Shown here: piece after piece, positions 2,006-49,890 of the stretch
How positions within the stretch are numbered: the stretch's first letter is position 1
How the letters are laid out: each line of letters begins with the position of its first letter
From: Thermoanaerobaculia bacterium
GTDB lineage: Bacteria > Acidobacteriota > Thermoanaerobaculia > UBA5066 > Gp7-AA6
Assembly (NCBI GenBank): GCA_035498835.1
Contig: DATJZU010000144.1
Span: forward strand, 654 to 64,653
DNA length: 64,000 nucleotides
Reading direction: 5' to 3'
Program-made: the position numbers and the translations under genes
The notes under the pieces: model-generated
The model's input: only the letters and a program-made list of their open reading frames with translations
Told to the model about the DNA's origin: nothing
Databases searched by the model: none

Positions 2006-2767
2006 TCAAAGGCCTCGCGGCGAGGCGCGTTGCAGAATCCGATCGAGTCTGTCGAGCGCGATCTCAGCGGTATCCGTAATCGCCAGGTCCACCCGTTCCG
2101 ACGCATCCGTCGTCTCGGGGTTGATCTCCGCGACGAAGGCGCCGCGGCGGCGCGCTTCGCCCGCGAAGCCCGCCGCCGGATAGACGACCGCCGACGTCCC
2201 GACCACCAGGCAGACGTCGCAGTCGAGCGCCGCGAGCGCTCGCTCGAAGACCTCGGGATCGATCGGCTCGCCGAACCAGACGACGCCCGGCCGCAGCAGT
2301 CCGTTGCAGTGCTCGCAGCGCGGCGGCATCTCGGGGAAGGGCACGCGTGCGTCGCTCCAGCGCCGCGGCGCGCCGTCGCAGGCCGAGGCGCAGCCGACCT
2401 CCCAGAGCGAGCCGTGGAAGCGCACGACGTTCTCCGTCCCCGCGCGCTCGTGGAGTCCGTCCACGTTCTGCGTCACGAGCGTGAACCGCGGGAACCTCCG
2501 GCTCCATTCCGCGAGCACCTCGTGTGCGCGGTTGGGCCGCGCGCGCGCCACGAGCTCGCGCCGCCACGCGTACCACTCCCACACCGTCGCCGGATCGCGT
2601 GCGAAGGCCTCGGGCGTCGCGAGCTCCTCGGGGCGGAAATCCCGCCAGAGCCCGCCCGGCCCGCGAAAGGTCGGGATGCCGCTCGCCGCCGAGACGCCGG
2701 CGCCCGTGAGCACCGTCACGCGGCACGCGGTCCGGAGCCGCGCGGCGAGGACCCCGACGGCCTTCAT
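2006..2767 (-). CDS. cobB: NAD-dependent protein deacylase (Sir2/CobB family)
   Basis: 253 aa with GAGVSAASGIPTFRG, the zinc ribbon C..C..C..C (CASACDGAP...CEHC) and GTS..VYPAAG motifs. Convergent with purK. Confidence 0.85.
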   Translation of the reverse strand: MKAVGVLAARLRTACRVTVLTGAGVSAASGIPTFRGPGGLWRDFRPEELATPEAFARDPATVWEWYAWRRELVARARPNRAHEVLAEWSRRFPRFTLVTQNVDGLHERAGTENVVRFHGSLWEVGCASACDGAPRRWSDARVPFPEMPPRCEHCNGLLRPGVVWFGEPIDPEVFERALAALDCDVCLVVGTSAVVYPAAGFAGEARRRGAFVAEINPETTDASERVDLAITDTAEIALDRLDRILQRASPRGL

Positions 2768-2912
2768 ACCGTCACGAGGGCTCCGGCTCGCAGACGACGA
2801 GCTCGTCGCCCATCGGGACAGAGTCGGGCAGGGCGGAGGCGAGGCGGTCGCGCACCGATCGATTCTCTTCGAATTGACCGTGCGGCGGGCCGCGGAATAG
2901 TCTGCGCGGGAC

Positions 2913-3662
2913 TTGTTCGAGTACCAGACCCTGTTCGACGCCCGGGGCGACCTCTACAGCCGCGCCAATCGCCGCTATCCGGAGGCGCGCGCGGAAGAGG
3001 CGGCCGCCCTCCTGTCCCATCTCGCGCTCACTCCATCCTCCCGCTGGCTCGACGTCTCGGCGGGCGGCGGCTACCTCTCCGAGCGCGCCGTGGCGCAGGG
3101 GCTGCCCCCCGCCCGGGTCTCCTGCGACGAGTCGCTCCCTTTCCTTCGCTCCGGCACCCATTCCGGCCGCGTGGGAGCGGCGCGCGCGGCGGACCTCCCC
3201 TTCGCCGACGGGCGGTTCGACGGCGTGGCGTGTCTTGCGGCGCTCCACCATGCCGAGGATCCGGAGGCGGTGTTCCGCGAGCTTCTGCGCGTGACGGCGC
3301 CCGGCGGGCGCGCGGCGCTCGGCGACGTGGCGGAGGACTCCGAGGCGGCGCGTTTCCTCAACGGTTTCGTGGACCGCCACACGGCGCCGGGGCATCACGG
3401 GCGTTTCTACACTCTCCGGACCCTCGTGGGCTTCCTGCGGCGCGCCGGGGGAATCTCGATCCACGCCGAAAGCGTCCGCCTCTCGTGGACCTTCGACTCC
3501 CCCGACGACGCGACGCTCTTCTGCCGCGATCTCTTCGGCCTCGAGCGGTCCACGACCGACGGCGAGATCCGCTACGCGCTCGACGATCTCGGCGCGACCG
3601 GCGGCGCCGGCCGCTTCCACATCCCCTGGACGATGCTGCAGGTCTCGGCCGCGCGCGCGTGA
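2913..3662 (+). CDS. Class I SAM-dependent methyltransferase
   Basis: 249 aa. Motif I LDVSAGGGYLS and motif post-I/II (FDGVACLAALHH, APGGRAALGDV) are typical of Methyltransf_11/25. First gene of a 4-gene coupled operon. Confidence 0.75.
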   Translation: MFEYQTLFDARGDLYSRANRRYPEARAEEAAALLSHLALTPSSRWLDVSAGGGYLSERAVAQGLPPARVSCDESLPFLRSGTHSGRVGAARAADLPFADGRFDGVACLAALHHAEDPEAVFRELLRVTAPGGRAALGDVAEDSEAARFLNGFVDRHTAPGHHGRFYTLRTLVGFLRRAGGISIHAESVRLSWTFDSPDDATLFCRDLFGLERSTTDGEIRYALDDLGATGGAGRFHIPWTMLQVSAARA

Positions 3663-4441
3663 GGCCCGCCGATCTCATCCCGCGATTCCTGCTGCCGCCC
3701 GTGTCGGCGCTGGTGGGCGAGTCGGGTGGTCCGCCGGACATCGAGGAGGAGACGGGAATCTCGCGTGCGGCGTGGGTCGAGCTCGGACGCGCCTTTCCGC
3801 GCCTCGGCGCCGACCCGGGACCCGAGGCCGCCCGCGCGCGGCGCCGGTTCGGCTTCCTCATCGGGCGCGCGCTCGACAGCGAGCGCCATGGGCCGGTCTT
3901 CCCGAGGGGCAGGCCCGATCCCGCGCCGCACGTCTACGCGACCGCGCACGTGGGCGACCTGCGGAGCCTGCGGTATCTGATGCGGCGGCACGTCCCGCTC
4001 GCCAACATCGTCAATGCCTCCGACGCGGACCGCGTCCACATCCTCGAACGGGACCGGCTCGTCGACGCCGAGTCGCCGCACGCTTTCCCGCACGCTTTTC
4101 ACTTCCGACAGCCGCACCGCCTGCGCGCGGCCCTGCGGCGCGGGAGTCTCCTCGCGGCGGTGGACATGCCCGAGGAAGAGGGGACGGAGTTCTCGTGCCT
4201 CGGCGGCCGCATCCGGCTCGATGCCCGCCCGTTCCGTCTCGCGCGGATCGCCGGGGTGCCGTGCCGCGCCATTTTCCTGACGGCGCCGCGCGGCCGCCTC
4301 ACGATCTCGATCGGCCCGGTGCTGCCGCGCGAGGAAGGCACCGCGCTCGCGAAGTTTGCACGCGCCCTCGAGCGCGCCGTGGACCGCTGTCCCTACGACA
4401 TCGACGCCGCGACCTGGTGGAGCCGGATCGGCCGCGCATGA
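3659..4441 (+). CDS. Hypothetical protein (no recognisable motifs), translationally coupled between the methyltransferase and the AMP-ligase
   Basis: A GTG at 3659 overlaps the methyltransferase stop (GTGA). GC3 is very high and the frame is maintained for 260 codons to a TGA that overlaps the next ATG (ATGA at 4438..4441). The upstream 1.6 kb of ORF 2030..4441 is an arginine-rich antisense artefact. Confidence 0.5.
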   Translation: MRPADLIPRFLLPPVSALVGESGGPPDIEEETGISRAAWVELGRAFPRLGADPGPEAARARRRFGFLIGRALDSERHGPVFPRGRPDPAPHVYATAHVGDLRSLRYLMRRHVPLANIVNASDADRVHILERDRLVDAESPHAFPHAFHFRQPHRLRAALRRGSLLAAVDMPEEEGTEFSCLGGRIRLDARPFRLARIAGVPCRAIFLTAPRGRLTISIGPVLPREEGTALAKFARALERAVDRCPYDIDAATWWSRIGRA

Positions 4442-5739
4442 GCCTCTTCGAGGCTTTCGCCGAGGCCGCGCGCCGGCAGCCGCGACGGGCCGCCCTGCGG
4501 CGGGGCGACGAAGCGCTCGATCTCGGGCAGCTCCTCGCGCGGGTCGAGGCCAGCGCCGATGCGCTCTCCGGCGGCGACGGCCCGGTCGGGCTCGACGCCG
4601 CCGATCCGTTCGCGCTCGCCGAAGGATTCTTCGCGGCGAGGCGTGCCGGCCGGACGGCCGTGGTCCACGCCGCGGGCGTCCCGCCTCGGCTCCGCCGCGA
4701 GCGCGAGGAGCGCCTGCGCGCTTTGCTCCCGGCGCGATCCGACGAGACGGTCTTCTTCTCCTCCGGCAGCGTGTCGCGCGGCAAGGCCATCCCGCTCTCC
4801 GGCGACCGGATCCTGTACTCGGCGCTGGCCTACCCCGAGCGCGTGGGCCTTCGCCCGGAAGACCGCGTCGCCGTGGCCGTTCCGCTCGGACAGATCTTCG
4901 GCTTCGTGCGCGGGATCGTGAACTCGCTCCTCGTGGGCGCCGAGGCGATCTTCTTTGCGCCGCGACGCGACGCGCTCGCCGAGGCCGACGCTCGGGGCGC
5001 CTCCTTCGCATTGTTGTCGCCCGCGCACCTCGCCCTCTCGGCGCACTCCCACGGCAGGCTCCGGTTGCGCGGGGCGCTCACGGCGGGCGGACCGCTGGCG
5101 GAGGCGGCCGCCGCGCGCATCGAGAACGAGCGCGGAGTCCCGGTCCGTTTCGGCTATGGACTGACGGAGACGACGGCCCTCGGCTCCCGGCAGCACTTCG
5201 ACCGGCCTCGCCGATCGGGCAGCTCCGGTCCTCCGGCGCCCGGCCTCGCGTTCACGATCGCCGACGCCGGGGGCGACCCCGTCGCGCCGGGAGAGAGCGG
5301 CGAGATCCGCATCGCGGGCCGGTCGGTCTTCCGCGGCTACGCCGACCCGGCCGACGCGTCGCCGCTCGACGCGGCCGGCCGGCTGCGCACCGGAGACCTC
5401 GGGTACCTCGACGAGGTGGGCGAAGTCCACGTGCGCGGGCGGATTTCCGAGAGCATCCGGGCGCACGGACGATTCCTGTGCGCGGAAGAAGTCGAGGAGG
5501 CGGTGCTCGAGAAGGCGGGCGTGCGGGAGGCGGCGGCCGTGCCGCTCGGCGATTCCTTCGGTCTCCTGCTCGCGACGGACGACGCCTCCGAACGATTCCT
5601 CGAAGAGGTGCGGACGCACGTGTCGGAACGGCTGCCGCTCTTTGCGCGTCCGCGGCGCCTGCGCCGCGCCGAGACGATCCCGCGAACGCCGGCCGGCAAG
5701 CTCGATCGCCGGGCCGCCGCGAAATGGTTCGAGAGCTAG
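4438..5739 (+). CDS. AMP-dependent synthetase/ligase (adenylate-forming acyl-CoA ligase-like)
   Basis: 433 aa MSLFEAF... with the AMP-binding core (FFSSGSVSRGKAIPLSGD = the (S/T)SG(S/T)TGxPK-like P-loop variant, GYGLTETT, GEIRIAGRSVFRGY, TGDLGYLD, and the C-terminal PRTPAGKLDR lysine motif). Confidence 0.8.
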   Translation: MSLFEAFAEAARRQPRRAALRRGDEALDLGQLLARVEASADALSGGDGPVGLDAADPFALAEGFFAARRAGRTAVVHAAGVPPRLRREREERLRALLPARSDETVFFSSGSVSRGKAIPLSGDRILYSALAYPERVGLRPEDRVAVAVPLGQIFGFVRGIVNSLLVGAEAIFFAPRRDALAEADARGASFALLSPAHLALSAHSHGRLRLRGALTAGGPLAEAAAARIENERGVPVRFGYGLTETTALGSRQHFDRPRRSGSSGPPAPGLAFTIADAGGDPVAPGESGEIRIAGRSVFRGYADPADASPLDAAGRLRTGDLGYLDEVGEVHVRGRISESIRAHGRFLCAEEVEEAVLEKAGVREAAAVPLGDSFGLLLATDDASERFLEEVRTHVSERLPLFARPRRLRRAETIPRTPAGKLDRRAAAKWFES

Positions 5740-6866
5740 ACGCGAGCGTCCGGGCGGCGGCCGCACGGGCGGCGCGGCGCCGCGAGACGCCCTTCTATCT
5801 CTTCGACGCCCGCGAGCTCGAGCGGCAGATCCGGGAGTGGCGGACGGCGGCGCCCGGCCGGGTCTTCTATCCGTACAAATGCAATCGGGAGCCGCGCATC
5901 GTCCGCGCCGCGGCGCGCGCGGGCCTCGGCGCCGAGGTCACGACGCTCGCGGACTTCCGCCTCGCGCGGCGGCTCGGCCTTTCGGGCGCGCGGATCCTCG
6001 TCCAGGGCCCGGCCAAGACCGCGGCGCTCCTCGACGCCGGCCTCGCCGCCGGCGCGCTCTTCGTCGTCGATGGGAGAGAGGACGGAGACGCGCTCCTCGA
6101 GCGGGCCCGCGCGCTCCGGCGCGCCCCCCGCTATCTGCTGCGCCTCGCGCCGCGGTCCGTTTCGCGCGAGCAGACGGCCTTCGGCTTGCCGGCGCCGGCC
6201 TTCGGAAGCCTCGCCCGCGAGCTCGCGCGGCGCGGCGAGCCCGCCGCCGAAGGTCTGGCGTTCCATCTCGGGACCGGCCTTTCGTCCCCGGCGCCCTACC
6301 TCGAGGCGCTCGGCGAGGCGGCGGCCGTCGCAAAGAGGCTGGCCGGCATCGGCCGGCCCGTCGCGACGATCGACGTCGGCGGAGGATTCGCGGCACGGCT
6401 CGAGTCGCGCGGAAAGGAGCCGCCGCCTCCGGGGCCGCGGGCGGCCGAGTTCGTCTCGGCGCTGTCGCGCGCCGCGCGGCGACTCGGACTCGAGAACATC
6501 CGGCTCCTGTTCGAGCCCGGCCGCGCGATCGCGTCCGGCGCGTACCATCTCGTCGCGCGCGTCGTGCGCATGCGGGAGGGCCGGAAGCCGGCGGTCTATC
6601 TCGACGCGTCGTGCCTCTCGCACGCGCCGTTTGTCCCGCTCGGCCGCCATCCGATCGCGGTTCTGCCGCGGCGGCGGCGGCCCGCCCGCCGGAGAACCGT
6701 GGTCCTCGCCGGCCCACTCGGCGTCACCTCGGACGTCTTCGCGCCGGCGGCGCGGCTGCCGCCCCTCGCACCGGGAGATCTCGTCGTCATCGGCTCGGTC
6801 GGCGCCTACAACGGAAATGCGGCGAACGCGTGGGCGGCGCCGGTTCCGGAGGTCGTCGGGGACTGA
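5724..6866 (+). CDS. PLP-dependent decarboxylase of the Orn/DAP/Arg decarboxylase (alanine-racemase-like TIM barrel) family
   Basis: ATG at 5724 overlaps the ligase end by 16 nt. The translation FYPYKCNREPRIVRAAARAGLGAEV (PLP-lysine region YxxKCN), HLGTG, EPGRAIASGA and the C-terminal beta-sandwich GAYNGNAANAW are DapDC/ODC-fold hallmarks. Confidence 0.75.
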   Translation: MVRELDASVRAAAARAARRRETPFYLFDARELERQIREWRTAAPGRVFYPYKCNREPRIVRAAARAGLGAEVTTLADFRLARRLGLSGARILVQGPAKTAALLDAGLAAGALFVVDGREDGDALLERARALRRAPRYLLRLAPRSVSREQTAFGLPAPAFGSLARELARRGEPAAEGLAFHLGTGLSSPAPYLEALGEAAAVAKRLAGIGRPVATIDVGGGFAARLESRGKEPPPPGPRAAEFVSALSRAARRLGLENIRLLFEPGRAIASGAYHLVARVVRMREGRKPAVYLDASCLSHAPFVPLGRHPIAVLPRRRRPARRRTVVLAGPLGVTSDVFAPAARLPPLAPGDLVVIGSVGAYNGNAANAWAAPVPEVVGD

Positions 6867-6881
6867 CCGGCGGGCCTCCCT

Positions 6882-8771
6882 TCACGGCCGCACGTCGAAC
6901 GTCACGGTGTTCGACACGCTTCCGTCGGGATTCTCGACCCGGAGCGCGAGCGCGCCGGGCTTCGCGTAGAGCGCGTCCGGCACGATCACGGTGAGCCAGC
7001 CGCGATTGCCGTAGGTCGCCGGAAGCCGCGTCGCGCCGAGGGAAACGACGGCGCCGGGCCGGAATCCCGCGCCGTGGATGGACAACGCGGATTCTCCCGA
7101 CGGCTGCGCCTGAAACGCGACGCCGGCGCGGGTTCCGGGCGGCGCGATCTCGTCGACGCGCAGGACGTCTTCGGCGCAGAGCTCGGCGGAGACGTCCAGG
7201 CCGTCGAGGACGACGCGGCTGGGCGCGAGGCCGGCTCCGGCGGCGTATGCCTCGATCTTCGCGCGGCGCCCCTCGGGCGGAAGCACGATGAAGCCGGGCT
7301 GCGCGGCCTCGCTCGTCTCCTGAAGAGATCCGAACACCGTCTCACAGGCGGCGTTCGGCCATGACCGGGCGAGGTCGCGGTAGACGTCGGGGTTGCTGAA
7401 CCAGAAGAACCACCAGTTGCGGTGGGCCACGACCTCGAAGCGCCTCCCGGCTTTCTCGACCGCGTACCGCTCGACGCGCGGATCTCCCGGGGCTCGCCCC
7501 TCGAAGCGCCAGTCCGCGTCGTGGAAGCCGGAGAAAACGCCGATCAGGTGAAAGACGTCCACGTGGACGACGCGTGCATTCGGAAACTGCCGGTCGAACG
7601 CCGCGAGCTTCGGAAGGAAGCTCTCGGGCTCCCGCGGATCTCGGGCCGGCACGCGGACCGCGAACGCGAACGCCACGGCGCCCGCGGCGGCCGCGAACGT
7701 CACGGCGCGCGCGGGACGGCTTCGGAGCCGTCCAAGGAGCCCGTCGAGCGCGACGAACGCGGCGAGAAGGGCGAAGACGTAGATCAGGAACTGATGCCGC
7801 ATCGCGCCGCCGAAGGGATAGAGGCGGAGCGTCCCGAGGACCGACCCGGCGAGGACGAGCACGAGGGAGAAGAGGGCCGGCAGCAGGCGGCGCGGATCCT
7901 TCGGCCCTCCGTCGGCGACGAGCGCGAAGGCGAGCGCGAGCGCGAAAAAGACCGCCAGGCCGGCCAGCGCCCATCGCGCGCGCGGCGCCGCGAGCGGCGA
8001 GAGCAGATCGAAGGTATTGCGGAAGTTCCGGACGAGGAAGTGCGCCACCGCCTCGTATCGCCCGTCGAAATAGAAAAAGGGGAGGCCCTTCGACGTGCCG
8101 ACCCAGTGCCGCGCCAGGAGCTCGTAGAGCAGGAGGGCGAGCCCGGCGAGCGGGACGAACGTCGCGGCGATCGCCCTCCACCGCGTCGACAGCGCGCGCC
8201 GAATGTCGCGGCGGTATGACGGAACGATCGCCGCCGCGAGCAGAGGCGCGGCGACGCACGCGCCGAGATAGAGGCCGGCGAAGTAGTGAGCGAGCAGCGC
8301 CAGCCCGGCGAGAACCGCGAACGCGATCCGGCTCCGGAGCGCCGGAGACGGCCCCGGGGCGACGAGGTCGAGAAAGAAGAAAAAGCTGCCGAGGAGGAGC
8401 GCGACGGCGAGCGCGTAGGACTCGACCGTGAGCGACAGGTCGATCGGGCTGCCCGCGAACGCCATCGCGGCCGCACCGAGGAGCGCCACCTCTTCCCGCG
8501 CGCCGAGCTTCTCGAGGATCCGGCCGACCAGATAGACGGACACCGCGCCCGCCACGATCGAGATCGACCGATAGACGAGCGGCGTGTGGCCGAGGATCTG
8601 GACCGCCTTCAGGAGAACCGAATAGAGCGGCGGATGCGCCAGGGTCCGCCATTCCCGCGAGAGATTCCGCGCGATGAAGACGTGCCAGAAGCCGTTGAAG
8701 TCGATCGGGCGGCGGGCGCCGTCGACGAGCCGCGGTACCAGCGAAAGAAGCGCGACGGCACCGAGCAAAGC
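6882..8771 (-). CDS. Polytopic GT-C-like (ArnT/PMT-type) membrane glycosyltransferase-like protein with C-terminal IPT/TIG domain
   Basis: It has about 10 predicted TM helices and a C-terminal 70-aa IPT/TIG-like beta-sandwich (SIHGAGFRPGAVVSLGATRLPATYGNRGWLTVIVPDALYAKPGALALRVENPDGSVSNTVTFDV). The supplied ORF extends to 9074 but would overlap the divergent gene at 8793. The start is therefore placed at TTG 8771 (LLGAVALLSLVP...) and remains uncertain. Confidence 0.55.
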   Translation of the reverse strand, partial: ALLGAVALLSLVPRLVDGARRPIDFNGFWHVFIARNLSREWRTLAHPPLYSVLLKAVQILGHTPLVYRSISIVAGAVSVYLVGRILEKLGAREEVALLGAAAMAFAGSPIDLSLTVESYALAVALLLGSFFFFLDLVAPGPSPALRSRIAFAVLAGLALLAHYFAGLYLGACVAAPLLAAAIVPSYRRDIRRALSTRWRAIAATFVPLAGLALLLYELLARHWVGTSKGLPFFYFDGRYEAVAHFLVRNFRNTFDLLSPLAAPRARWALAGLAVFFALALAFALVADGGPKDPRRLLPALFSLVLVLAGSVLGTLRLYPFGGAMRHQFLIYVFALLAAFVALDGLLGRLRSRPARAVTFAAAAGAVAFAFAVRVPARDPREPESFLPKLAAFDRQFPNARVVHVDVFHLIGVFSGFHDADWRFEGRAPGDPRVERYAVEKAGRRFEVVAHRNWWFFWFSNPDVYRDLARSWPNAACETVFGSLQETSEAAQPGFIVLPPEGRRAKIEAYAAGAGLAPSRVVLDGLDVSAELCAEDVLRVDEIAPPGTRAGVAFQAQPSGESALSIHGAGFRPGAVVSLGATRLPATYGNRGWLTVIVPDALYAKPGALALRVENPDGSVSNTVTFDVRP

Positions 8772-8792
8772 CCGGTAAGCTCTCCGGCCAGC

Positions 8793-10172
8793 ATGGCGTC
8801 GGAGCCGCGGAAGACGGGCCTCCTCGATTCGGCGTGGCTCTTCGCTCTGGCCGTCGCCGTCCACGTCCCCTACCTCCTCGGACGCCCGTTCTTTTTCGCC
8901 GACGATTTCGGGTTGCTCGCGGACGCGGATAATCTCACGTCGGGCGCGACCCGTTTCTTCGACGTGCCGGCCTGGGGCGTCTGGCGCCTCGGCCAGCGGG
9001 CGCTCTGGTGGGCCGGTTACCGCGCCTTCGGCCTCGACCCCCTCCCCTACGCGTGGCTGAGCGTCCTCCTCCACGGGGCGGTCGTCGTGGCGCTCGCGGC
9101 GCTGCTCCGGCGTCTCTCATGGAGCCGGACAGCCGTCCTCGCCGGAGCGGCGGTCTTCGCGACGCTCGCGGTGCCCGCGCTCGCGGTGCGGTACATGGTC
9201 CAGAGCGCGGTCCTCGTCGCCGCGCTCCTCGTGATCCTCGCCGCCATCGCGCACGACGCCGGCCGTGTCCGCGGGGCGACTCTCCTCTTTCTCGCCGCCG
9301 CCCTCTTCTACGAGCAGGCGCTCTGCGCGCCGCTCGTCTTCGCGGCGATCAACGTCTGGCGCGCGCGCAAGCCTTTCGCGGGCCTCGGCGCGCCGATCGC
9401 GGCCGCCGTCGCCTTCGTCGCCGTCAACCTCTGGACGCTCCGCCACGCGACGAAGATCTTCGCGTACAACAGCCTCGGCCTCGGAAAAGAGGCGCTGCGG
9501 CAGATCGTGTTCGCACCGTGGCTCGCGGCCGGCGTGCCGCCGGGCGCAACGATGCGGACCTCCAGCGCGGTTCTGCTCCTCGCGGCGACGGCCGCGATCG
9601 TCATCGTCGCGCTGCGCTGGCTCCCGGCGCGCGGCGTTCTCCTCGGCGCCGCCCTCGCGTGGATCGCGGCACTCCCTTACGCCGGACGAAACGTCGGCTG
9701 GTGGCCTCCCTACTACTTCTACCTGCCGGGCGCGGGGCTCGCCGCCGCCGTTTCGGCGCCGCGGGTCCGCCTCTGGCCGCTCGCCTGCCTCCCGCTCGTG
9801 GTCTGGAACGTCCGGAGCAATCTCGCGGGAGGCCGCGCGACGCTCGCCGAGATGCATCGGTACGAGCAGGTGACGCGCGAGACGTCTCCGCAGACCGGCG
9901 TGCCTTACGCGATTTTCGTCAACGTCAATTCGGGTCTCGCCTGGGCGGGCTGGCAATTCGGGGGGACGCTGCGGGCGTTCGAGCTGTGGGACGCCCCCGG
10001 GGGCGCCGCCCGCTGCTACACGGGAAGCGACCTCGGGGAGACGCGGCAGCGAATGCGGCGCGATTTCCCCGGCGCGGTCCGCCGCGGCCGCTGGCCCGAA
10101 GATCGGCCGCCGGCGCTCCGCGGCGCGCGACCGCCGGCCCGCCGGCGTCTCTTCGCCTGGCCCGCGGGCTGA
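8793..10172 (+). CDS. Polytopic membrane protein, GT-C-like / YfhO-ArnT-like putative glycosyltransferase
   Basis: ATG at 8793 gives MASEPRKTGLLDSAWLFALAVAVHVPYLL..FFADDFGLL, an acidic first-loop motif as in GT-C enzymes. It has more than 10 TM segments and a soluble C-terminal domain. The upstream part of ORF 8286..10172 is antisense to the previous gene. Confidence 0.5.
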   Translation: MASEPRKTGLLDSAWLFALAVAVHVPYLLGRPFFFADDFGLLADADNLTSGATRFFDVPAWGVWRLGQRALWWAGYRAFGLDPLPYAWLSVLLHGAVVVALAALLRRLSWSRTAVLAGAAVFATLAVPALAVRYMVQSAVLVAALLVILAAIAHDAGRVRGATLLFLAAALFYEQALCAPLVFAAINVWRARKPFAGLGAPIAAAVAFVAVNLWTLRHATKIFAYNSLGLGKEALRQIVFAPWLAAGVPPGATMRTSSAVLLLAATAAIVIVALRWLPARGVLLGAALAWIAALPYAGRNVGWWPPYYFYLPGAGLAAAVSAPRVRLWPLACLPLVVWNVRSNLAGGRATLAEMHRYEQVTRETSPQTGVPYAIFVNVNSGLAWAGWQFGGTLRAFELWDAPGGAARCYTGSDLGETRQRMRRDFPGAVRRGRWPEDRPPALRGARPPARRRLFAWPAG

Positions 10173-10177
10173 CCCGC

Positions 10178-11917
10178 CTACTGAAGGTAGCCGAGCGCCC
10201 GGAGGCGCCGCACCTGCTCCGAGACGTCCACCGGCTGGCCGGAACTCTTTCTCTCGTTGGCCACCCAGCTCGCCCATCCCGGGGCGAGCACGTCCGTCTG
10301 CGCGACGGGAAGGAGTTTCGCGCCCGCCGCCCGGAATTCCGCCGAGACGACGCCCAGGTCCGTCCGGTCCGGCACGAGCCACGCGCGCGCGGAACCGTCG
10401 TCGCGGATCGACACGCGCACCGCGTCGCCCGAGAACGCGAACGTCTCGTCGTCGCGCGGAAAGAACGGGACGAGGCGCGTCAGATCGCCCGCGTAGCGCA
10501 CGCTCCCCTCGATCCGGCCGCCCGATCCCCTCCCGCGCACCGCGACCCAGCGGCCCGGCAACGCCGGGGCGAAGCTCCGCAGCACGACGTCGCGCGCGGC
10601 GACGAGCGCCGACAGCGCCGCGGGTGTCGCCGCGAGGTTCGACTTCTCGCCGGGGTCCCGCGCGAGATCGAAAACCGCCTCCCGCGGCAGGAGGGCGCGC
10701 ACGCGCTCGTCGCCGAAGAGGTGATCCGTCACGGGAGGCGACGGCGCCGGTCCCTTGTTGAAGAAGATCGTCTGCGTCATTCCCGACATCACCGCGACGC
10801 GCAGCGGCCCGTACCGGTAGGTCTCCGCGAGGAACGTCCTCCCGGCGGGCGCCTCGCCGCCCGAAAGCGCCCGCGAGAGGTCCACGCCGCGCCAGGAAGC
10901 CGCGGCCGCGGGGTCCGCGATCTTCGCGCGCGCCGCGAGCGTCGGCAGCAGATCGATCAGCCCGACCGGCTGCGTGACGATGCGTCCCGCCGGAATGCCC
11001 GGCCCGGCCACGACCAGCGGCACGCGCAGCAGCTCCTCGTAGAGCGACCAGCCGTGACCGAGGAACCCGTGGTCCAGGAATTCCTCGCCGTGGTCTGCCA
11101 GGAAGACGACCGTCGTGCGCCGGCGAACCTCCGGTTCGAGGGCCGAGAGAACGCGCGTCAGGCCGCGGTCCACGAGCGCGACTTCCGCGGCGTAGAGCCG
11201 GCGCCACTCCGCGAGCGTCGCCGCGTCGGGGAGCGGGTTCTTGCCGTAGAAGGAGAGGCTCGCGTCGCCCGGAACCGGCGCCTTCGGATCTTTCGGGCGC
11301 TCCTCCGGCGGACAGTAGGGCGAGTGCGGATCGACGAAATGCACGTAGGCGAAGAACGGCCGGTGCTGCTCCCGACGCAGCCACAGAGCGGCGTGCTCGG
11401 CCGTCGTCAGAGCGTCCGTCCACATCGAGGCCTCGGTCGGCGGCGCCCAGAACGTGTCGAATCCCTGTGCAAACCCGTTGTCGCGGTTGACGAGCACGTT
11501 GGCGGAGAAGCCGCCGGTTGCGTATCCCTTTGCGCGGAAGAGCTCCGCCATCGTGACGGCGTCCTCCGGCAGACGCTGCGGGAGATCGGCCCAATCCGTG
11601 ACTTCGTGACACCAGCGTGACGTGAAGAGGGAGGCGACGGAGGGCAGCGTCCAGGACGACTGCGCCCGGGCCTGCGTGAACCGCACGCCCGAGGCGGCGA
11701 GCGCGTCGATTGCCGGCGTCTTCCCCGGCCCCGCGCCGAAGACGCCGACGGCGTCGAGCCGTACCGTGTCGCCCAGCACGATGAGGACGTTGCCGGGCAC
11801 CTCCGGCGCGCGGCGGCAGCCGCCGGCGAGGGCCGCCGTGAGGGCCGCGAGACCGAGCAGCGCCCCTCCAGGAAAGACCGCCCCGACGGTCCGGACGCTT
11901 CTCCTCGCGCGCGCCAT
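10178..11917 (-). CDS. Sulfatase (alkaline-phosphatase superfamily) lipoprotein
   Basis: 579 aa with a lipobox LAGGC. The sulfatase N-domain shows the metal/active-site region (VLGDTVRLDAVGVFG...SWTLPSVASLFTS) and conserved His/Lys blocks (ADHGEEFLDHGFLGHGWSLYEE). C-terminal RALGYLQ. Confidence 0.8.
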   Translation of the reverse strand: MARARRSVRTVGAVFPGGALLGLAALTAALAGGCRRAPEVPGNVLIVLGDTVRLDAVGVFGAGPGKTPAIDALAASGVRFTQARAQSSWTLPSVASLFTSRWCHEVTDWADLPQRLPEDAVTMAELFRAKGYATGGFSANVLVNRDNGFAQGFDTFWAPPTEASMWTDALTTAEHAALWLRREQHRPFFAYVHFVDPHSPYCPPEERPKDPKAPVPGDASLSFYGKNPLPDAATLAEWRRLYAAEVALVDRGLTRVLSALEPEVRRRTTVVFLADHGEEFLDHGFLGHGWSLYEELLRVPLVVAGPGIPAGRIVTQPVGLIDLLPTLAARAKIADPAAAASWRGVDLSRALSGGEAPAGRTFLAETYRYGPLRVAVMSGMTQTIFFNKGPAPSPPVTDHLFGDERVRALLPREAVFDLARDPGEKSNLAATPAALSALVAARDVVLRSFAPALPGRWVAVRGRGSGGRIEGSVRYAGDLTRLVPFFPRDDETFAFSGDAVRVSIRDDGSARAWLVPDRTDLGVVSAEFRAAGAKLLPVAQTDVLAPGWASWVANERKSSGQPVDVSEQVRRLRALGYLQ

Positions 11918-11972
11918 TTGCGCGCCGCAGAATAAACGATCGGGCGACGGCGGCCGGTCCGTCGCCCGCGAG

Positions 11973-12000
11973 CGAGCTATATCAGTTCTGATATAGCTCG
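11973..12000. promoter_or_regulatory. Perfect 13+13 bp inverted repeat cGAGCTATATCAG-tt-CTGATATAGCTCg (AT-rich core) in the divergent intergenic region
   Basis: Read directly from the sequence. It lies between the sulfatase start (11917, minus strand) and the ORF at 12122 (plus strand). The AT-rich dyad in a 70% GC genome suggests an operator for a dimeric regulator. It is preceded by a second GC hairpin at 11942..11966. Confidence 0.35.
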
Positions 12001-12121
12001 GCCATCGCGTGGCACCTTCGTGCCCGCGCCGATGGCACTGGAAGGCGATTGAACACTCATCAACCGTCGCCTACCCTGACATCAAAACGAGCATCGATTT
12101 CTGGGGAAGGAACGCAACCCG

Positions 12122-12481
12122 ATGATCTCCGGCAAGCCTCTGGCAGCGAGGACCGAGCCTTCGGCCCCTCCGATGAATCCCGGGCCGGCCACCCGGCCCG
12201 ACCAGCGTCCCATCGTGACCGAGCACGGCCTATCGGTCGCGTGGAGCGTCAAGCCGGAGCGCAACAAGACCCGGACGATCCTGTACGAGCGTCTCACCGG
12301 AGAGGCCGCGCGAGAACGCGCCCGGCAGCCCGAGCCGCGGGGCGCGGGGCTCCCGGCCGAGATCGTCGATCAGATCGAGTACATCGAGGTGTGGAGCACG
12401 CCGAACGAGCCCGTCGGCTACGACTTCCGCGGCTATTCCTTCGGCGGCGTCCTCATCGCGTCGCGCTCGACCCGCGCGTAG
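12122..12481 (+). CDS. Hypothetical protein
   Basis: 119-aa ORF with protein-like composition (…IEYIEVWSTPNEPVGYDFRGYSFGGVLIASR). Preferred over the overlapping arginine-rich 12049 frame. No recognisable motif. Confidence 0.35.
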   Translation: MISGKPLAARTEPSAPPMNPGPATRPDQRPIVTEHGLSVAWSVKPERNKTRTILYERLTGEAARERARQPEPRGAGLPAEIVDQIEYIEVWSTPNEPVGYDFRGYSFGGVLIASRSTRA

Positions 12482-24684: not shown

Positions 24685-25575
24685 ATGGCCCGGAGGCGAG
24701 CGGCGGCGGCCAAACGAGTCGCGCACTCATCGCGCGCCGCCGCCCCGCCTCGGCCGGTTTGGACCGGCCAGATCTCTTTCGGCCTGGTCACGATCCCGAT
24801 CGCGCTCTCGAGCGCCGTCGAAGCGTCGGAGCGAATCTCCTTCCACCTGCTCCACCGCAAGGATCTCGCGCCCATCCACTACAAGAAGTTCTGCAGTCTC
24901 GAGGACGTCGAGGTGAGCAACGACGAGGTCGTCCGCGGCCGACGGAGCGGCAAGACGAAGTGGACGGTCGTCGAAAAGGAAGATCTCGAGAAGGCGGCGG
25001 AGGAAGCGTCGCCGGCCGACAGCCGGAACACCATCGAGGTGCTCGAGTTCGTTTCGCCGAGTACGATCGACTTTCTCTCGCTCGACGAGCCCTACTACGT
25101 CGTGCCCCGAAAGGGAGGCGAGAAGGCCTACGTTCTCCTCCGGCGCGCGCTCACCGAGCGAAGCCGGACGGGAATCGTGCGCGTCACGCTGCGCACCCGG
25201 CCGCACCTGGCGGCGCTGTCACCCCGGGGCGAGGCCTTGACGCTCGTCACGCTACGGCCCTTCGAGGAGATGCGCGACGCCTCGCGCTGGGGCCTGCCGC
25301 CGCCGTCCGCGCGTCCCGCCGAGGTCGCGCTCGCCGAGCAGCTCGTGGACCGGCTCTCGGGCGGAGGCTGGGACCCGGCGCGGCATCCCGACACCTATCG
25401 GCGCGCGCTCCAGAAGCTGCTCGCCTCGAAGAGCGCCCGGGGCGCGCGGGGCGCGGCCCCCGAACCCTCCGGCGAAAACGTGGTCGACCTGATGGAAGCC
25501 CTCCGGCGGAGCGTGGCCGGCCGCGTGGGGCGACGCCCTCGAAACGCCGCTCCGCGCAAGGCCAGCACCGCCTGA
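24685..25575 (+). CDS. ku: Ku protein (NHEJ DNA-end binding)
   Basis: VWTGQISFGLVTIPIALSSA... Ku core with a basic C-terminal tail. It lies 14 nt after the PRC-barrel gene. No ligD is present in the window. Confidence 0.85.
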   Translation: MARRRAAAAKRVAHSSRAAAPPRPVWTGQISFGLVTIPIALSSAVEASERISFHLLHRKDLAPIHYKKFCSLEDVEVSNDEVVRGRRSGKTKWTVVEKEDLEKAAEEASPADSRNTIEVLEFVSPSTIDFLSLDEPYYVVPRKGGEKAYVLLRRALTERSRTGIVRVTLRTRPHLAALSPRGEALTLVTLRPFEEMRDASRWGLPPPSARPAEVALAEQLVDRLSGGGWDPARHPDTYRRALQKLLASKSARGARGAAPEPSGENVVDLMEALRRSVAGRVGRRPRNAAPRKASTA

Positions 25576-35391: not shown

Positions 35392-36141
35392 TCAGTCCGC
35401 GAGCGCCGGCAACGTCGCCAGCACCTCCGCGGCCTTCGGCCGATTCCGGACGGGCTCGTCCTTCCGGATCGTGCCGTCTTTGAAGACCAGGACGCGTTTG
35501 GCGAACCGCGAGATGTCCGGCTCGTGGGTGACGAGAACGATCGTCAGGCCGTGGTCGTTGAGATCCTGAAAGATCTCGAGGATTTCGACGGAAGTGCGGC
35601 TGTCGAGATTCCCGGTCGGCTCGTCCGCGAGCAGGATCGCCGGCCGATTGACGAGAGCGCGCGCGATGGCGACGCGCTGTTGCTGGCCGCCGGACATCTG
35701 TGAAGGAAAGTGCCGCGCCCGGTCGCCGAGGCCGACCATCTCGAGCGCCTTCAACGCCCGCGCCTCCCGTTCGCCCCGGTCGACGCGCGTATACAGGGTC
35801 GGCAGCTCGACGTTCTCGAGCGCCGTCGTCCGGGCCAGGAGATTGAATCCTTGAAAGACGAAGCCGATCTTCTGATTTCGGATCGCCGCGAGCGCTCGCC
35901 GGTCGTGCCCCGCCACGTCGATGCCGTCGAGCAAATACCGCCCGGCGGACGGACGATCGAGGCAGCCGAGCAGATTCATGAAGGTCGACTTTCCGCTGCC
36001 GCTTGCCCCCATGATGGCGACGAATTCGCCCGGCCCGATCTCCACATCGACACCGCGGAGCGCGTGCACGCGGGTCTCGCCGAGCTCGTAGTACTTGTGG
36101 AGGTTCTCGACCCGGATGACCGGCGGCGGAGCGCTCGCCAC
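35392..36141 (-). CDS. ABC transporter ATP-binding protein (MacB/LolD-type)
   Basis: A GTG start overlaps the upstream stop. Walker [11 protein letters not shown]-loop, signature [15 protein letters not shown], Walker [13 protein letters not shown] and H-loop are present. Confidence 0.85.
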
Positions 36142-37469: not shown

Positions 37470-37479
37470 CCGCGGGGCG

Positions 37480-49860: not shown

Positions 49861-49890
49861 CACGCTCCCTTCAATGGATGATCCTTCATG

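What the first reader, a model, noticed from the sequence alone, without database searches (positions are those of the whole stretch)
2913..11917. Uncharacterised envelope-modification locus: methyltransferase / unknown / AMP-ligase / DAP-decarboxylase-fold PLP enzyme operon with two GT-C membrane proteins and a sulfatase
Four tightly overlapping genes are immediately followed by a GT-C-like polytopic protein with an IPT/TIG domain, a second GT-C-like membrane protein and a lipoprotein sulfatase. The four genes are a SAM methyltransferase, a 260-aa protein without motifs, an adenylate-forming ligase and an Orn/DAP-fold PLP decarboxylase. The ligase + PLP-decarboxylase pairing resembles the conserved but functionally unassigned pair that accompanies exosortase/PEP-CTERM loci. 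Here it occurs with no ACP, NRPS or exosortase in view. That suggests synthesis of an activated amino-acid-derived amine that is transferred to a surface glycan or lipid by the GT-C enzymes.
Basis: inference. Interest (0 to 1): 0.65.

Follow-up and report, generated by a model that had tools for sequence, protein, structure and literature searches.

The report
Four-gene lipid acylation cassette, Thermoanaerobaculia
A soil acidobacterium carries a conserved, uncharacterised four-gene operon (methyltransferase, hidden lipid-A-type acyltransferase, compact acyl-activating ligase, PLP decarboxylase) that probably attaches an amine-bearing acyl group to a membrane lipid. The neighbouring membrane glycosyltransferases and "sulfatase" are not part of it.

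Summary
The genes are real and sit at the stated coordinates. The functional unit, however, is the four overlapping plus-strand genes (2913-6866), not the 9-kb block.

- **The "260-aa protein without motifs".** It is a divergent PatA/LpxM-type (LABLAT) acyltransferase. Support: AF2 pLDDT 88.6; Foldseek E 1e-8; hhalign probability 99.7 % to PF03279 members.
- **The ligase.** It belongs to a small family of short (~435 aa) acyl-CoA-synthetase-like ANL enzymes.
- **The decarboxylase.** It keeps the PLP machinery but has lost the DAP-recognition residues.
- **Exosortase models.** Neither protein matches them: 85 bits against cut-offs of 592 and 478. FadD7 and LysA models score higher.
- **Synteny.** MT-AT-ligase-decarboxylase recurs in 11 Thermoanaerobaculia genomes other than the window's own, in two unrelated neighbourhoods. 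One genome keeps only AT+ligase. The GT-C genes and the "sulfatase" come and go, lie on other strands, and are absent from the second neighbourhood.

**Best reading:** the ligase makes an acyl thioester, and the LABLAT enzyme transfers the acyl group to a membrane (glyco)lipid. The decarboxylase and methyltransferase turn an amino-acid moiety into a (methylated) amine. This is inferred, not shown.

The cassette is a new variant of known lipid-decoration logic (AlmEFG, OlsH/G/I). Interest is moderate.

The parts
2874..2901 (+). sigma-70-like promoter candidate (TTGACC-16-AATAGT), 12 nt upstream of the g1 start
   Evidence: It is the only such site in 2600-12300; shuffles give a mean of 0.2. This is a consensus match only, not proof of function.
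2913..3662 (+). g1: class I SAM-dependent methyltransferase (249 aa, TTG start)
   Evidence: Pfam Methyltransf_11 52 bits and Methyltransf_23 47 bits. PDB relatives are generic small-molecule or lipid methyltransferases; MccD is not among them. The SAM motif 'LDVxAGGGYL' and the 'FLNGFVDxHTxxGHxGRF' motif are conserved in 10 genomes. g1 is lost together with g4 in one genome.
3659..4441 (+). g2: divergent PatA/LpxM-type (LABLAT, PF03279-related) acyltransferase, 260 aa, soluble, pI 10.7
   Evidence: No Pfam, NCBIfam or PDB sequence hit. AF2 pLDDT 88.6, pTM 0.87. Foldseek hits: PatA E 1e-8, LpxM 4e-7, PlsC 4e-3. The profile search reaches PF03279 members. hhalign gives 99.7 %, E 3e-26, and aligns invariant H97 and D169 with the family's conserved His and Asp. 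A related domain is fused to an adenylation domain and a carrier domain in P0236.
4438..5739 (+). g3: compact (433 aa) adenylate-forming ANL ligase of acyl-CoA-synthetase type
   Evidence: AMP-binding matches only from model position 166, plus AMP-binding_C. Best NCBIfam models are FadD7 (130 bits) and long-chain FACL (123 bits). Best PDB hits are oxalyl- and malonyl-CoA synthetases. It forms a discrete family of about 60 clusters at 46-94 % identity and 430-454 aa, followed by a gap to 35 % identity. The SSGS..K, GYGxTE, TGD, GR and GK(L/I/V)DR motifs are conserved.
5724..6866 (+). g4: fold-type III (Orn/DAP/Arg decarboxylase family) PLP-dependent decarboxylase, 380 aa, not a LysA
   Evidence: Pfam PF02784 91 bits and PF00278 36 bits. 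LysA model 131 bits against a cut-off of 298; TIGR03099 85 against 478. 'YPYKCN' (PLP Lys), 'FHLGTG', 'GGGF', 'EPGR' and 'GAYN' are invariant in 12 genomes. Where DAP decarboxylase has 'RPxLY' and 'GPxCExxD', g4 has 'APFVP' and 'GPLGVTSD'.
6882..8768 (-). g5 (neighbour, not part of the cassette): polytopic membrane protein, putative GT-C, with a C-terminal Ig-like (IPT / choice-of-anchor Z) domain
   Evidence: About 8 hydrophobic stretches (9 overlapping 19-mer runs). PMT E 9e-4 and TIG E 0.014 are sub-threshold; NCBIfam CoaZ_rpt_PGGG scores 48.5 against a cut-off of 30. Present only in the window and in L012.
8793..10172 (+). g6 (neighbour, not part of the cassette): GT-C-fold membrane protein of a tiny unannotated family
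   Evidence: No family hit. Only 13 clusters in 5.8 billion proteins. AF2 pLDDT 82. Foldseek top hits are ArnT, AftB, EmbA/B, STT3 and Pmt4. 'FFFADDFG' after TM1 is invariant. Present in only 4 genomes, once on the other strand next to sulfatase-family genes.
10178..11917 (-). g7 (neighbour, not part of the cassette): secreted, possibly lipoprotein, sulfatase-family (alkaline-phosphatase superfamily) enzyme without the formylglycine motif
   Evidence: PF00884 146 bits. All equivalog models score far below their cut-offs. T-L-P-S-V is conserved in place of C/S-x-P-x-R. Absent from L014, L017 and L022-L024.

Best explanation
The functional unit is a four-gene, translationally coupled operon (2913-6866, plus strand). 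It is restricted to Thermoanaerobaculia.

**Proposed mechanism**
1. g3 is a compact acyl-CoA-synthetase-type adenylate-forming enzyme. It activates a carboxylic acid with ATP and passes it on as a phosphopantetheine thioester. The carrier is CoA or the cell's own ACP, because the cassette has no dedicated carrier.
2. g2 is a divergent PatA/LpxM-type acyltransferase. It transfers that acyl group to a hydroxyl or amine of a membrane lipid or glycolipid at the cytoplasmic face of the inner membrane.
3. g4 is a DAP-decarboxylase-fold PLP enzyme whose DAP-recognition residues have been replaced by small or hydrophobic ones. It removes the alpha-carboxylate of an amino-acid moiety in the donor or in the conjugate, leaving a primary amine.
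4. g1 methylates that amine.

The net product would be an amine-bearing, possibly N-methylated, acylated lipid. That is either a cationic decoration or an aminolipid.

**Shown:** the fold and family of each protein, conservation of the catalytic motifs, the operon structure, and the cassette's conservation independent of its neighbours.

**Inferred:** the order of steps, the substrates, the acceptor and the thioester intermediate.
For: **The cassette is the conserved unit.**
- MT-AT-ligase-decarboxylase is present in the window and in L012-L015, L017-L019 and L020 (on a cut contig).
- It is also present in a second clade, L022-L024, where the ligase is 46-51 % identical. There it sits between nuo-like genes and PCYCGC/POR genes, a completely different neighbourhood.
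- Start and stop codons overlap.

**g2 is a LABLAT-type acyltransferase.** His97 and Asp169 are invariant.

**Ligase and acyltransferase are coupled.**
- The pair survives alone in L007/L016.
- A g2-like domain is fused to AMP-binding and PP-binding domains in P0236. P0236 lies in a context of PPTase, Wzm/Wzt-type ABC transporter and GT2.
- The nearest bona fide PF03279 relative, P0188, sits in a LolA-KS-FkbO cluster, which looks to me (from memory) like an aryl-polyene/flexirubin-type cluster.

**The ligase is of acyl-CoA-synthetase type.**
- FadD7 family 130 bits, against 92 bits for the amino-acid adenylation model.
- Oxalyl- and malonyl-CoA synthetases are the best PDB hits. 'PLGQIFGF' aligns with their 'PLFHVHGL'.

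**The decarboxylase.** The PLP residues are conserved and the DAP-specific residues are lost.

**MT and decarboxylase are lost together** in L007/L016. This suggests a tailoring sub-module.

**Precedents.**
- AlmE/F/G lipid A glycylation (PMC4278540).
- OlsH (adenylate-forming), OlsG (N-methyltransferase) and OlsI (O-acyltransferase) for the trimethylornithine lipid (PMC12493201).
Against: - No substrate, acceptor or product is known, and there are no experimental data.
- All four proteins are predicted to be soluble. Membrane association of g2 is assumed by analogy with PatA and LpxM.
- g2 lacks the canonical acid of the HX4(D/E) motif: an invariant Arg102 occupies that position. Its chemistry may therefore differ from classical acyl transfer.
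- No lipid A, phospholipid or polysaccharide genes are consistently adjacent. 'Lipid' rests only on what the fold family is known to do.
- A distant g2 homologue occurs alone, without a ligase (L009).
- No carrier protein is present. In both the AlmEFG system and the P0236 fusion the donor is carrier-bound.
- Within the first clade, synteny could partly reflect general collinearity of closely related genomes.
Confidence: 0.5

Rival explanations
1. Aminolipid pathway analogous to OlsH/OlsG/OlsI.
1. The ANL ligase directly amidates a diamino acid (Orn, Lys or DAP) with a fatty acid through the acyl-adenylate. No carrier is needed.
2. The LABLAT enzyme adds the second ('piggy-back') acyl chain.
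3. The decarboxylase removes the remaining free alpha-carboxylate, for example N-acyl-DAP to N-acyl-lysine, or N(omega)-acyl-Lys/Orn to N-acyl-cadaverine/putrescine.
4. The methyltransferase N-methylates the head-group amine, as OlsG does.
For: - The gene-content logic matches the OlsH-OlsG-OlsI operon: adenylate-forming enzyme, N-methyltransferase and O-acyltransferase (PMC12493201).
- Fold-type III decarboxylases act on diamino acids, which are the usual aminolipid head groups.
- g4 has lost the residues that bind the distal charged end of DAP, as expected if that end is acylated.
- No carrier is needed, which matches the cassette.
- The genome with only AT+ligase would make the untailored lipid.
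Against: - g3 is PF00501, not a GH3-family enzyme. g2 is not an alpha/beta-hydrolase like OlsI. This is analogy only.
- Amide-forming activity of g3 is untested.
- Classical ornithine and lysine lipids are acylated on the alpha-amine, which would block PLP-dependent alpha-decarboxylation. An unusual regiochemistry must therefore be assumed.
Confidence: 0.2
2. AlmEFG-like aminoacyl esterification of lipid A or another glycolipid. The ligase adenylates an amino acid. The LABLAT-type enzyme esterifies it onto a lipid A acyl-chain hydroxyl. The decarboxylase and methyltransferase tailor the aminoacyl group to raise surface positive charge and give resistance to antimicrobial peptides.
For: - By the title of Henderson et al. 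[quoted passage not shown] It works with an ANL-type ligase, AlmE (PMC4278540).
- g2 is equally divergent from canonical LABLATs and lacks the HX4D/E acid.
- The P0236 fusion shows the adenylation-carrier-LABLAT architecture.
Against: - No AlmF-like carrier is present in any of the 12 cassettes.
- g3 scores higher on fatty/acyl-CoA ligase models than on amino-acid adenylation models.
- g3 has no FD-type A4 motif for an alpha-amino group (motif knowledge from memory).
- No lipid A genes are adjacent.
Confidence: 0.12
3. A cytoplasmic small-molecule (secondary-metabolite or osmolyte-like) pathway unrelated to the envelope. An amino acid would be decarboxylated, methylated, activated and N- or O-acylated to give a soluble product.
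For: - All four proteins are soluble.
- The neighbours in either clade are not envelope-specific: purEK/SIR2/SOD in one, nuo-like/POR in the other.
- DAP-decarboxylase-fold enzymes act on conjugates in siderophore and antibiotic pathways. FslC and BtrK appear among the hits.
Against: - To my knowledge (from memory), every characterised member of the LABLAT/PatA/LpxM fold acylates a lipid or glycolipid; the top fold matches here (PatA, LpxM, PlsC) all do.
- The related fusion protein lies with a Wzm/Wzt-type transporter and a GT2.
- No exporter, NRPS/PKS or regulator travels with the cassette.
Confidence: 0.13
4. The whole 9-kb block is one envelope-modification locus. An exosortase-type ligase/decarboxylase pair makes an amine, and the two GT-C proteins, with the sulfatase, transfer it to a surface glycan or lipid.
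For: - g6 has a GT-C fold and g5 is weakly PMT-like.
- In L013, g6 follows the decarboxylase on the same strand, 228 nt downstream.
- A g7 homologue lies near the cassette in 7 genomes.
Against: - TIGR03098 and TIGR03099 scores (85 bits) are far below their cut-offs and below those of generic models.
- g5 is in only two genomes.
- g6 and g7 are absent from L014, L017 and all second-clade loci. Elsewhere they are on other strands or kilobases away.
- From textbook knowledge, GT-C enzymes use polyprenyl-phosphate-linked sugar donors on the periplasmic side, not cytoplasmic acyl or amine donors.
Confidence: 0.05

Closest known systems
AlmE/AlmF/AlmG lipid A glycylation system of Vibrio cholerae
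   Same: An ANL-type ligase is paired with a highly divergent lipid-A-late-acyltransferase-family (LABLAT) transferase. The pair installs a non-fatty, amine-bearing acyl group on a membrane glycolipid (PMC4278540).
   Different: - There is no carrier protein here.
- The ligase looks like an acyl-CoA synthetase rather than a DltA-like amino-acid ligase.
- This cassette has an extra PLP decarboxylase and methyltransferase.
- There is no detectable sequence relationship beyond superfamily level.
OlsH-OlsG-OlsI trimethylornithine-lipid operon of Singulisphaera acidiphila
   Same: The operon logic is the same: an adenylate-forming enzyme, a SAM methyltransferase and an O-acyltransferase make a methylated aminolipid without a dedicated carrier (PMC12493201).
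   Different: - OlsH is a GH3-family enzyme and OlsI is an alpha/beta-hydrolase. Here the roles are filled by a PF00501 ligase and a LABLAT-fold protein.
- The Ols operon has no decarboxylase.
PatA (mycobacterial PIM acyltransferase) and LpxM/LpxL (lipid A secondary acyltransferases), Pfam PF03279
   Same: These are the best structural matches of g2. The conserved His and Asp align. From memory, PatA uses acyl-CoA, which shows that a carrier protein is not obligatory in this fold.
   Different: - g2 is shorter (260 aa against about 300).
- It is not detected by the Pfam model.
- It has Arg in place of the D/E of HX4(D/E).
- It is encoded next to a dedicated ligase.
Exosortase A-associated acyl-CoA ligase / PLP decarboxylase pair (TIGR03098 / TIGR03099)
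   Same: It has the same two superfamilies encoded side by side, and its function is likewise unassigned.
   Different: - Scores are 85 bits against cut-offs of 592 and 478.
- Generic FadD7 and LysA models score higher.
- No exosortase, PEP-CTERM or ACP genes were seen in the window.
BtrJ/BtrI/BtrK (butirosin) and the NIS-siderophore decarboxylases (FslC, SbnH-type)
   Same: These are DAP-decarboxylase-fold PLP enzymes that decarboxylate an amino acid only after it has been conjugated. BtrK and FslC are among the hits for g4.
   Different: - Their partner ligases are ATP-grasp or NIS synthetases (from memory), not ANL enzymes.
- Their products are soluble metabolites.
- g4 is no closer to them than to LysA.

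Membership tests
TIGR03098 (acyl-CoA ligase, exosortase A system-associated) | Score at or above the curated cut-off of 592.35 bits | tested here: not met
   85.0 bits. It ranks 17th, behind FadD7 (130.5), PRK06187 (123), MenE and others.
TIGR03099 (PLP decarboxylase, exosortase A system-associated) | Score at or above the curated cut-off of 478.45 bits | tested here: not met
   85.1 bits. LysA TIGR01048 scores higher at 131.3.
Exosortase/PEP-CTERM-associated ligase-decarboxylase system | Exosortase (EpsH) and ACP genes in the genomic context | tested here: not met
   No exosortase, PP-binding or PEP-CTERM-related family was found among the genes of the 64-kb window. None was found around the cassette in 12 other loci.
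Diaminopimelate decarboxylase LysA (TIGR01048) | Score at or above 297.9 bits, and the DAP-binding residues (RPxLY, CExxD) | tested here: not met
   131.3 bits. The alignment to Brucella DAPDC 3vab shows 'APFVP' for 'RPTLY' and 'GPLGVTSD' for 'GPVCETGD'. The role of those residues is taken from memory.
Fold-type III PLP decarboxylases (PF02784 + PF00278) | Both Pfam domains above their gathering scores, and the PLP-binding lysine and cofactor motifs | tested here: met
   91.4 and 35.9 bits. K in 'YPYKCN', 'FHLGTG', 'GGGF', 'EPGR' and 'GAYN' are invariant in 12 homologues.
LABLAT / Lip_A_acyltrans (PF03279; LpxL, LpxM, PatA) | Match to the Pfam model above its gathering score | tested here: not met
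   g2 and 33 homologues give no hit, even at E <= 1.
LABLAT / Lip_A_acyltrans (PF03279; LpxL, LpxM, PatA) | The fold, and profile-level homology | tested here: met
   - Foldseek: PatA E 1.3e-8, LpxM 4e-7, probability 1.0, TM about 0.5.
- hhalign: 99.7 %, E 3e-26, to a set in which 18 of 20 proteins hit PF03279.
LABLAT / Lip_A_acyltrans (PF03279; LpxL, LpxM, PatA) | Catalytic HX4(D/E) dyad | tested here: inconclusive
   His97 is invariant and aligns with the family His. Position i+5 is an invariant Arg102, not D/E. Invariant Asp169 aligns with the family's conserved Asp and could serve as the partner, as (from memory) Glu200 does in PatA.
ANL adenylate-forming superfamily (PF00501 + PF13193) | Both domains above their gathering scores, and core motifs A3, A5, A7, A8 and the A10 Lys | tested here: met
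   113.9 and 30.1 bits. The motifs are conserved in 13 homologues. The N-terminal subdomain is about 60 aa shorter than usual: the Pfam match starts at model position 166.
AlmEFG-type lipid A aminoacylation | A dedicated phosphopantetheinyl carrier protein (AlmF) between ligase and transferase | tested here: not met
   The four genes overlap, so there is no room for one. No PP-binding gene lies within +/-8-10 kb in any locus.
OlsH/OlsG/OlsI aminolipid pathway | A GH3-family amido synthetase and an alpha/beta-hydrolase O-acyltransferase | tested here: not met
   g3 hits PF00501 and no GH3 model. g2 has a LABLAT fold. Only the operon logic is shared.
GT-C glycosyltransferases (g6) | GT-C transmembrane fold with an acidic motif in the first periplasmic loop | tested here: met
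   Of the top 13 Foldseek hits, 12 are GT-C enzymes (ArnT 5f15 E 3.6e-3, TM 0.46); the other, rank 4, is a translocon-complex chain I could not identify from its description. 'ADD' in 'FFFADDFG' is invariant. No sequence-family hit.
GT-C glycosyltransferases (g5) | Match to a GT-C family model, or the fold | tested here: inconclusive
   PMT 19.3 bits, below the gathering score of 22.7. LA_3751/2 family E 0.005. No structure was predicted.
Formylglycine-dependent sulfatases (g7) | The C/S-x-P-x-R formylglycine motif | tested here: not met
   PF00884 scores 146 bits, but the motif position reads T-L-P-S-V. It is conserved in 5 homologues.

The most novel reading that the evidence does not exclude
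The cassette makes a previously undescribed class of bacterial membrane lipid: a carboxylate-free, N-methylated 'amine lipid'. A fatty acid would be adenylated and joined to a diamino acid. The free alpha-amino-acid end would then be decarboxylated in situ by a DAP-decarboxylase-fold enzyme re-tooled for an acylated substrate. The resulting amine would be methylated, and a second chain would be added by the LABLAT enzyme. This would be a fourth, carrier-independent route to aminolipids, and the first in which a PLP decarboxylase acts on a lipid head group.
Probability: 0.12. Interest if true: 0.75.

Novelty: new variant of a known kind. Interest (0 to 1): 0.45.

Why it matters
Thermoanaerobaculia are abundant in soil, almost all uncultured, and their envelope chemistry is unknown.

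The cassette combines four well-known enzyme superfamilies in an arrangement I could not find described. Three of its members have features of their own.
- The acyltransferase family is invisible to Pfam and NCBIfam.
- The ligase is an unusually compact ANL enzyme.
- The DAP-decarboxylase-fold enzyme has a re-modelled substrate pocket.

If it does build or decorate a cationic lipid, it would add to the small set of charge-modifying lipid systems (AlmEFG, MprF, Dlt, Ols). It would also give a genetic marker for such lipids in soil metagenomes.

Practically, the work re-annotates a 'hypothetical protein' family as LABLAT-type acyltransferases. It also shows that the neighbouring 'sulfatase' cannot be a formylglycine sulfatase.

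Tried and rejected
- **g2 sequence-family searches.** Pfam and NCBIfam scans of g2 gave nothing. A Pfam scan of 34 family members and a profile search of PDB sequences also gave nothing. Only structure prediction and an exhaustive profile search linked g2 to PF03279.
- **The search for related loci.** The full alignment A1 failed for lack of conserved stretches. A 12-sequence subset worked.
- **P0182 (1106 aa).** It looked like a Rosetta-stone fusion of all four genes. Its sequence is in-frame fragments of MT, AT, ligase and decarboxylase joined by Arg-rich out-of-frame stretches. It is therefore a mis-called ORF over a frameshifted assembly. I rejected it as evidence of fusion and kept it only as another instance of the gene order.
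- **MccD/MccE idea.** The idea was that an MT-fold enzyme transfers aminocarboxypropyl from SAM and a fold-III decarboxylase then gives aminopropylation (PMC10491745). g1 shows no similarity to MccD (PDB 5FCD) at E <= 1, and resembles ordinary methyltransferases. The idea is not excluded, but it is unsupported.
- **g4 as a housekeeping LysA.** Rejected on the score and on loss of the DAP-binding motifs.
- **Papers not held.** The AlmG (Henderson 2017) and OlsG (2015) papers are not in the library.
- **RNA scan.** Rfam found no RNA family in the window.

Full report
**1. Gene structure**

The window is 70-75 % G+C here, so raw ORF lists are dominated by spurious frames.

A third-position GC frame plot resolves seven genes in 2913-11917. 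They coincide exactly with the gene calls on the source metagenome contig (ENA k141_4181930).

| Gene | Coordinates | Strand | Length |
|---|---|---|---|
| g1 | 2913-3662 | + | 249 aa |
| g2 | 3659-4441 | + | 260 aa |
| g3 | 4438-5739 | + | 433 aa |
| g4 | 5724-6866 | + | 380 aa |
| g5 | 6882-8768 | - | 628 aa |
| g6 | 8793-10172 | + | 459 aa |
| g7 | 10178-11917 | - | 579 aa |

- g1-g4 overlap by GTGA, ATGA and 16 nt.
- The only sigma-70-like promoter match in 9.7 kb lies at 2874-2901, just before g1.
- g5, g6 and g7 alternate in strand, so they cannot be a continuation of that operon.
- Naming of homologues places the organism in Thermoanaerobaculia (Acidobacteriota), from soil and wetland metagenomes.

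**2. Family assignments**

- **g1** is an ordinary class I SAM methyltransferase (Methyltransf_11/23).
- **g3** is an ANL adenylate-forming enzyme.
  - Pfam matches only from model position 166, so the N-terminal subdomain is about 60 residues short.
  - The best curated models are FadD7-family and long-chain fatty-acid-CoA ligases, at 130 and 123 bits.
  - The best solved relatives are oxalyl- and malonyl-CoA synthetases.
- **g4** is a fold-type III PLP decarboxylase.
  - Its closest relatives are DAP decarboxylases: LysA model 131 bits against a cut-off of 298, and PDB 3vab.
They score below the generic models.
- **g7** hits Sulfatase PF00884 strongly.
- **g5** has only sub-threshold PMT and TIG hits, plus an above-threshold NCBIfam 'choice-of-anchor Z' repeat domain at the C-terminus.
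- **g2 and g6** hit nothing.

**3. The 'protein without motifs' (g2)**

- A database search found only 53 relatives, all unnamed or from Thermoanaerobaculia/Acidobacteriota.
- An alignment of 34 of them shows invariant His97 ('TAHxGDLRxLRY'), Asp169 and several Arg residues.
- AlphaFold2 on this alignment gave a confident model: pLDDT 88.6, pTM 0.87.
- Foldseek against the PDB returned the following:
  - the mycobacterial PIM acyltransferase PatA (E 1e-8, probability 1.0);
  - the lipid A secondary acyltransferase LpxM (4e-7);
  - PlsC (4e-3).
- An exhaustive profile search of 1.84 billion representatives found 26 close members. Below them is a tail of roughly 300-aa proteins, and 18 of the 20 sampled match Pfam PF03279 Lip_A_acyltrans.
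- Profile-profile comparison gives 99.7 % probability, E 3e-26. It aligns His97 and Asp169 with the conserved His and Asp of that set.

g2 is therefore a divergent LABLAT-type acyltransferase.

One canonical feature is missing. The acid at i+5 of HX4(D/E) is an invariant Arg. The catalytic arrangement may thus resemble PatA, which uses a remote acid (from memory), or may differ.

**4. Functional coupling of ligase and acyltransferase**

- One distant hit, P0236 (914 aa), has three domains: AMP-binding, PP-binding and a g2-like domain carrying the same 'HFGxxxLLRYLL' motif. This is an adenylation-carrier-acyltransferase fusion.
- P0236 lies beside a PPTase, a Wzm/Wzt-type ABC-2 transporter, a GT2 and a P450. 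That is a surface-glycoconjugate context.
- The nearest clear PF03279 member, P0188, sits between LolA and ketosynthase/FkbO genes, which I take (from memory) to be an aryl-polyene/flexirubin-type lipid cluster.
- A second apparent fusion, P0182 (1106 aa), is an artefact. It is a mis-called ORF running through a frameshifted copy of the four-gene operon.

**5. Synteny**

- tblastn of the window proteins on all fetched loci shows MT-AT-ligase-decarboxylase in the window's species and in eight further species-level genomes: L012-L015, L017-L019 and L020. All of these share the purEK-SIR2 ... SOD backbone.
- One complete genome (L007 = L016) has only AT-ligase. MT and decarboxylase are cleanly absent together.
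- A 44 %-identical g2 homologue stands alone in another genome.
- The ligase family is discrete. About 60 clusters lie at 46-94 % identity and 430-454 aa. Identity then drops to 35 % with 74 % coverage.
- The lower-identity tier (L022-L024) carries the same four genes in the same order and overlapping. There the cassette lies between nuoB/CD/I-like genes and PCYCGC/pyruvate:ferredoxin oxidoreductase genes. This independent context shows that the cassette is the conserved unit.
- By contrast:
  - g5 is present only in the window and in its 93 %-identical relative;
  - g6 is in four genomes, once on the other strand between two sulfatase-family genes;
  - g7 is missing from L014 and L017.
- None of g5-g7 accompanies the second-clade cassettes.

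**6. Residue-level observations**

- **g4.**
  - It keeps the Schiff-base Lys ('YPYKCN'), 'FHLGTG', 'GGGF', 'EPGR' and 'GAYN' in all 12 homologues.
  - In the alignment to DAP decarboxylase, 'RPTLY' becomes 'APFVP' and 'GPVCETGD' becomes 'GPLGVTSD'. From memory, these segments bind the distal charged end of DAP or ornithine.
  - g4 is therefore an active decarboxylase with a different, less polar substrate pocket. That would fit a conjugated amino acid. Relatives such as BtrK and FslC also act on conjugates, and both are among the hits.
- **g3.**
  - It conserves the P-loop 'SSGS..K', 'GYGxTE', 'TGD', the hinge 'GR' and the A10 'GK(L/I/V)DR'.
  - 'PLGQIFGF' aligns with 'PLFHVHGL' of CoA ligases.
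  - It does not show an NRPS-type 'FD' motif, which argues for a carboxylic-acid substrate rather than an alpha-amino-acid substrate.

**7. Mechanism**

The best-supported model has four steps.
1. g3 activates an acid and forms a phosphopantetheine thioester, with CoA or the housekeeping ACP.
2. g2 transfers the acyl group to a membrane lipid or glycolipid.
3. g4 decarboxylates an amino-acid moiety.
4. g1 methylates the resulting amine.

The fold, family, motif and synteny statements are shown. The substrates, acceptor and order of steps are inferred.

Two more specific variants are treated as rivals.
- **Ols-like aminolipid route.** The precedent is the OlsH adenylate-forming enzyme, the OlsG N-methyltransferase and the OlsI O-acyltransferase (PMC12493201).
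- **Alm-like aminoacylation of lipid A.** The precedent is AlmE/F/G (PMC4278540).

A soluble-metabolite pathway cannot be excluded.

An MccD/MccE-style aminopropylation (PMC10491745) has no sequence support.

**8. The neighbours**

- **g6.**
  - It belongs to a tiny family of 13 clusters.
  - 'FFFADDFG' after TM1 is invariant.
  - Its AF2 model (pLDDT 82) matches ArnT, AftB, EmbA/B, STT3, Pmt4 and ALG6. The GT-C call is right at the fold level.
- **g5.** It is plausibly GT-C, but this was not established.
- **g7.**
  - T-L-P-S-V replaces the formylglycine motif in the window and in five homologues.
  - It is more likely a Thr-nucleophile phospho-ester hydrolase or transferase of the alkaline-phosphatase superfamily than a sulfatase.

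**9. Wider window**

Pfam scans of the remaining genes show the following, with no ACP, NRPS, exosortase or lipid A genes:
- trehalose genes and Ku;
- regulators;
- a MacB-type efflux system;
- a 2843-aa GH94 cyclic-glucan-synthase-like protein;
- an arg operon;
- cytochrome bd.

**10. Verdict**

- The specific exosortase analogy and the GT-C transfer step are not supported.
- The general idea of an amine-bearing envelope decoration survives, with g2 as the transferase.
- The cassette is an undescribed combination of known enzyme kinds, confined to one class of Acidobacteriota.
- Novelty: new variant of a known kind.
- Interest: 0.45.

Noticed in passing
window 10178-11917 (-): The 'sulfatase' g7 has T-L-P-S-V where formylglycine sulfatases have C/S-x-P-x-R. 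This is conserved in five homologues. It probably uses a Thr nucleophile, as LtaS, EptA and NPP do, and is not a sulfatase. Its lipobox (A-G-G-C) is atypical.
   Followed up: partly
window 8793-10172 (+): g6 belongs to a very small, unannotated GT-C-fold family. It has 13 clusters in 5.8 billion proteins and an invariant 'FFFADDFG' motif. In L016 it lies between two sulfatase-family genes, so its real partner may be g7 rather than the cassette.
   Followed up: partly
L026 8001-10745 (protein P0236): A 914-aa protein with three domains: adenylation, carrier and a LABLAT-like acyltransferase. It lies next to a PPTase, a Wzm/Wzt-type ABC transporter, a GT2 and a P450. This looks like an AlmE-AlmF-AlmG-type system fused into one polypeptide, in an unidentified organism.
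   Followed up: partly
protein P0182 (database entry, 1106 aa): A public gene call that looks like an MT-AT-ligase-decarboxylase fusion. It is actually one long ORF read through a frameshifted, high-GC assembly of the same operon. Such artefacts could mislead fusion-based function prediction.
   Followed up: yes
L009 10001-10810: A 44 %-identical g2 paralogue has a 'RIHRPPPGAKDH'-type insertion. It stands alone, without ligase, MT or decarboxylase, directly after a TonB-dependent receptor gene and before STAS/GAF genes.
   Followed up: no
window 38825-47356 (-): A giant 2843-aa protein with glucoamylase-like, GH94 supersandwich and GH94 catalytic domains. This is a cyclic beta-1,2-glucan synthase (NdvB/Cgs)-like enzyme. 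It lies downstream of a MacB-type ABC efflux system (35392-38697).
   Followed up: no
window 47400-50700: G+C drops to 0.60-0.66 in this 3.3-kb stretch. No ORF there shows the strong third-position GC signature seen in every other gene of the window. It may be foreign or recently acquired DNA, or non-standard genes.
   Followed up: no
window 24802-24888 (-): ARAGORN calls an 87-nt tRNA-Arg(GCG) here. It lies inside the plus-strand Ku gene (24685-25575), and Rfam finds no tRNA anywhere in the window. It is probably a false positive.
   Followed up: partly
window 11941-11968 (-): A strong hairpin (10 bp, 9 G-C) is followed by a T-rich tail on the minus strand, just upstream of the g7 start codon. 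It could be a terminator for upstream minus-strand transcription or a regulatory structure.
   Followed up: no
window 2006-2912; L007 9091-9810; L011 8450-9046: Relatives carry a GNAT acetyltransferase gene between the SIR2 deacetylase gene and the cassette, an acetylase/deacetylase pair. The window lacks it. Only a short ORF with coding-like GC3 (2676-2900) remains.
   Followed up: no
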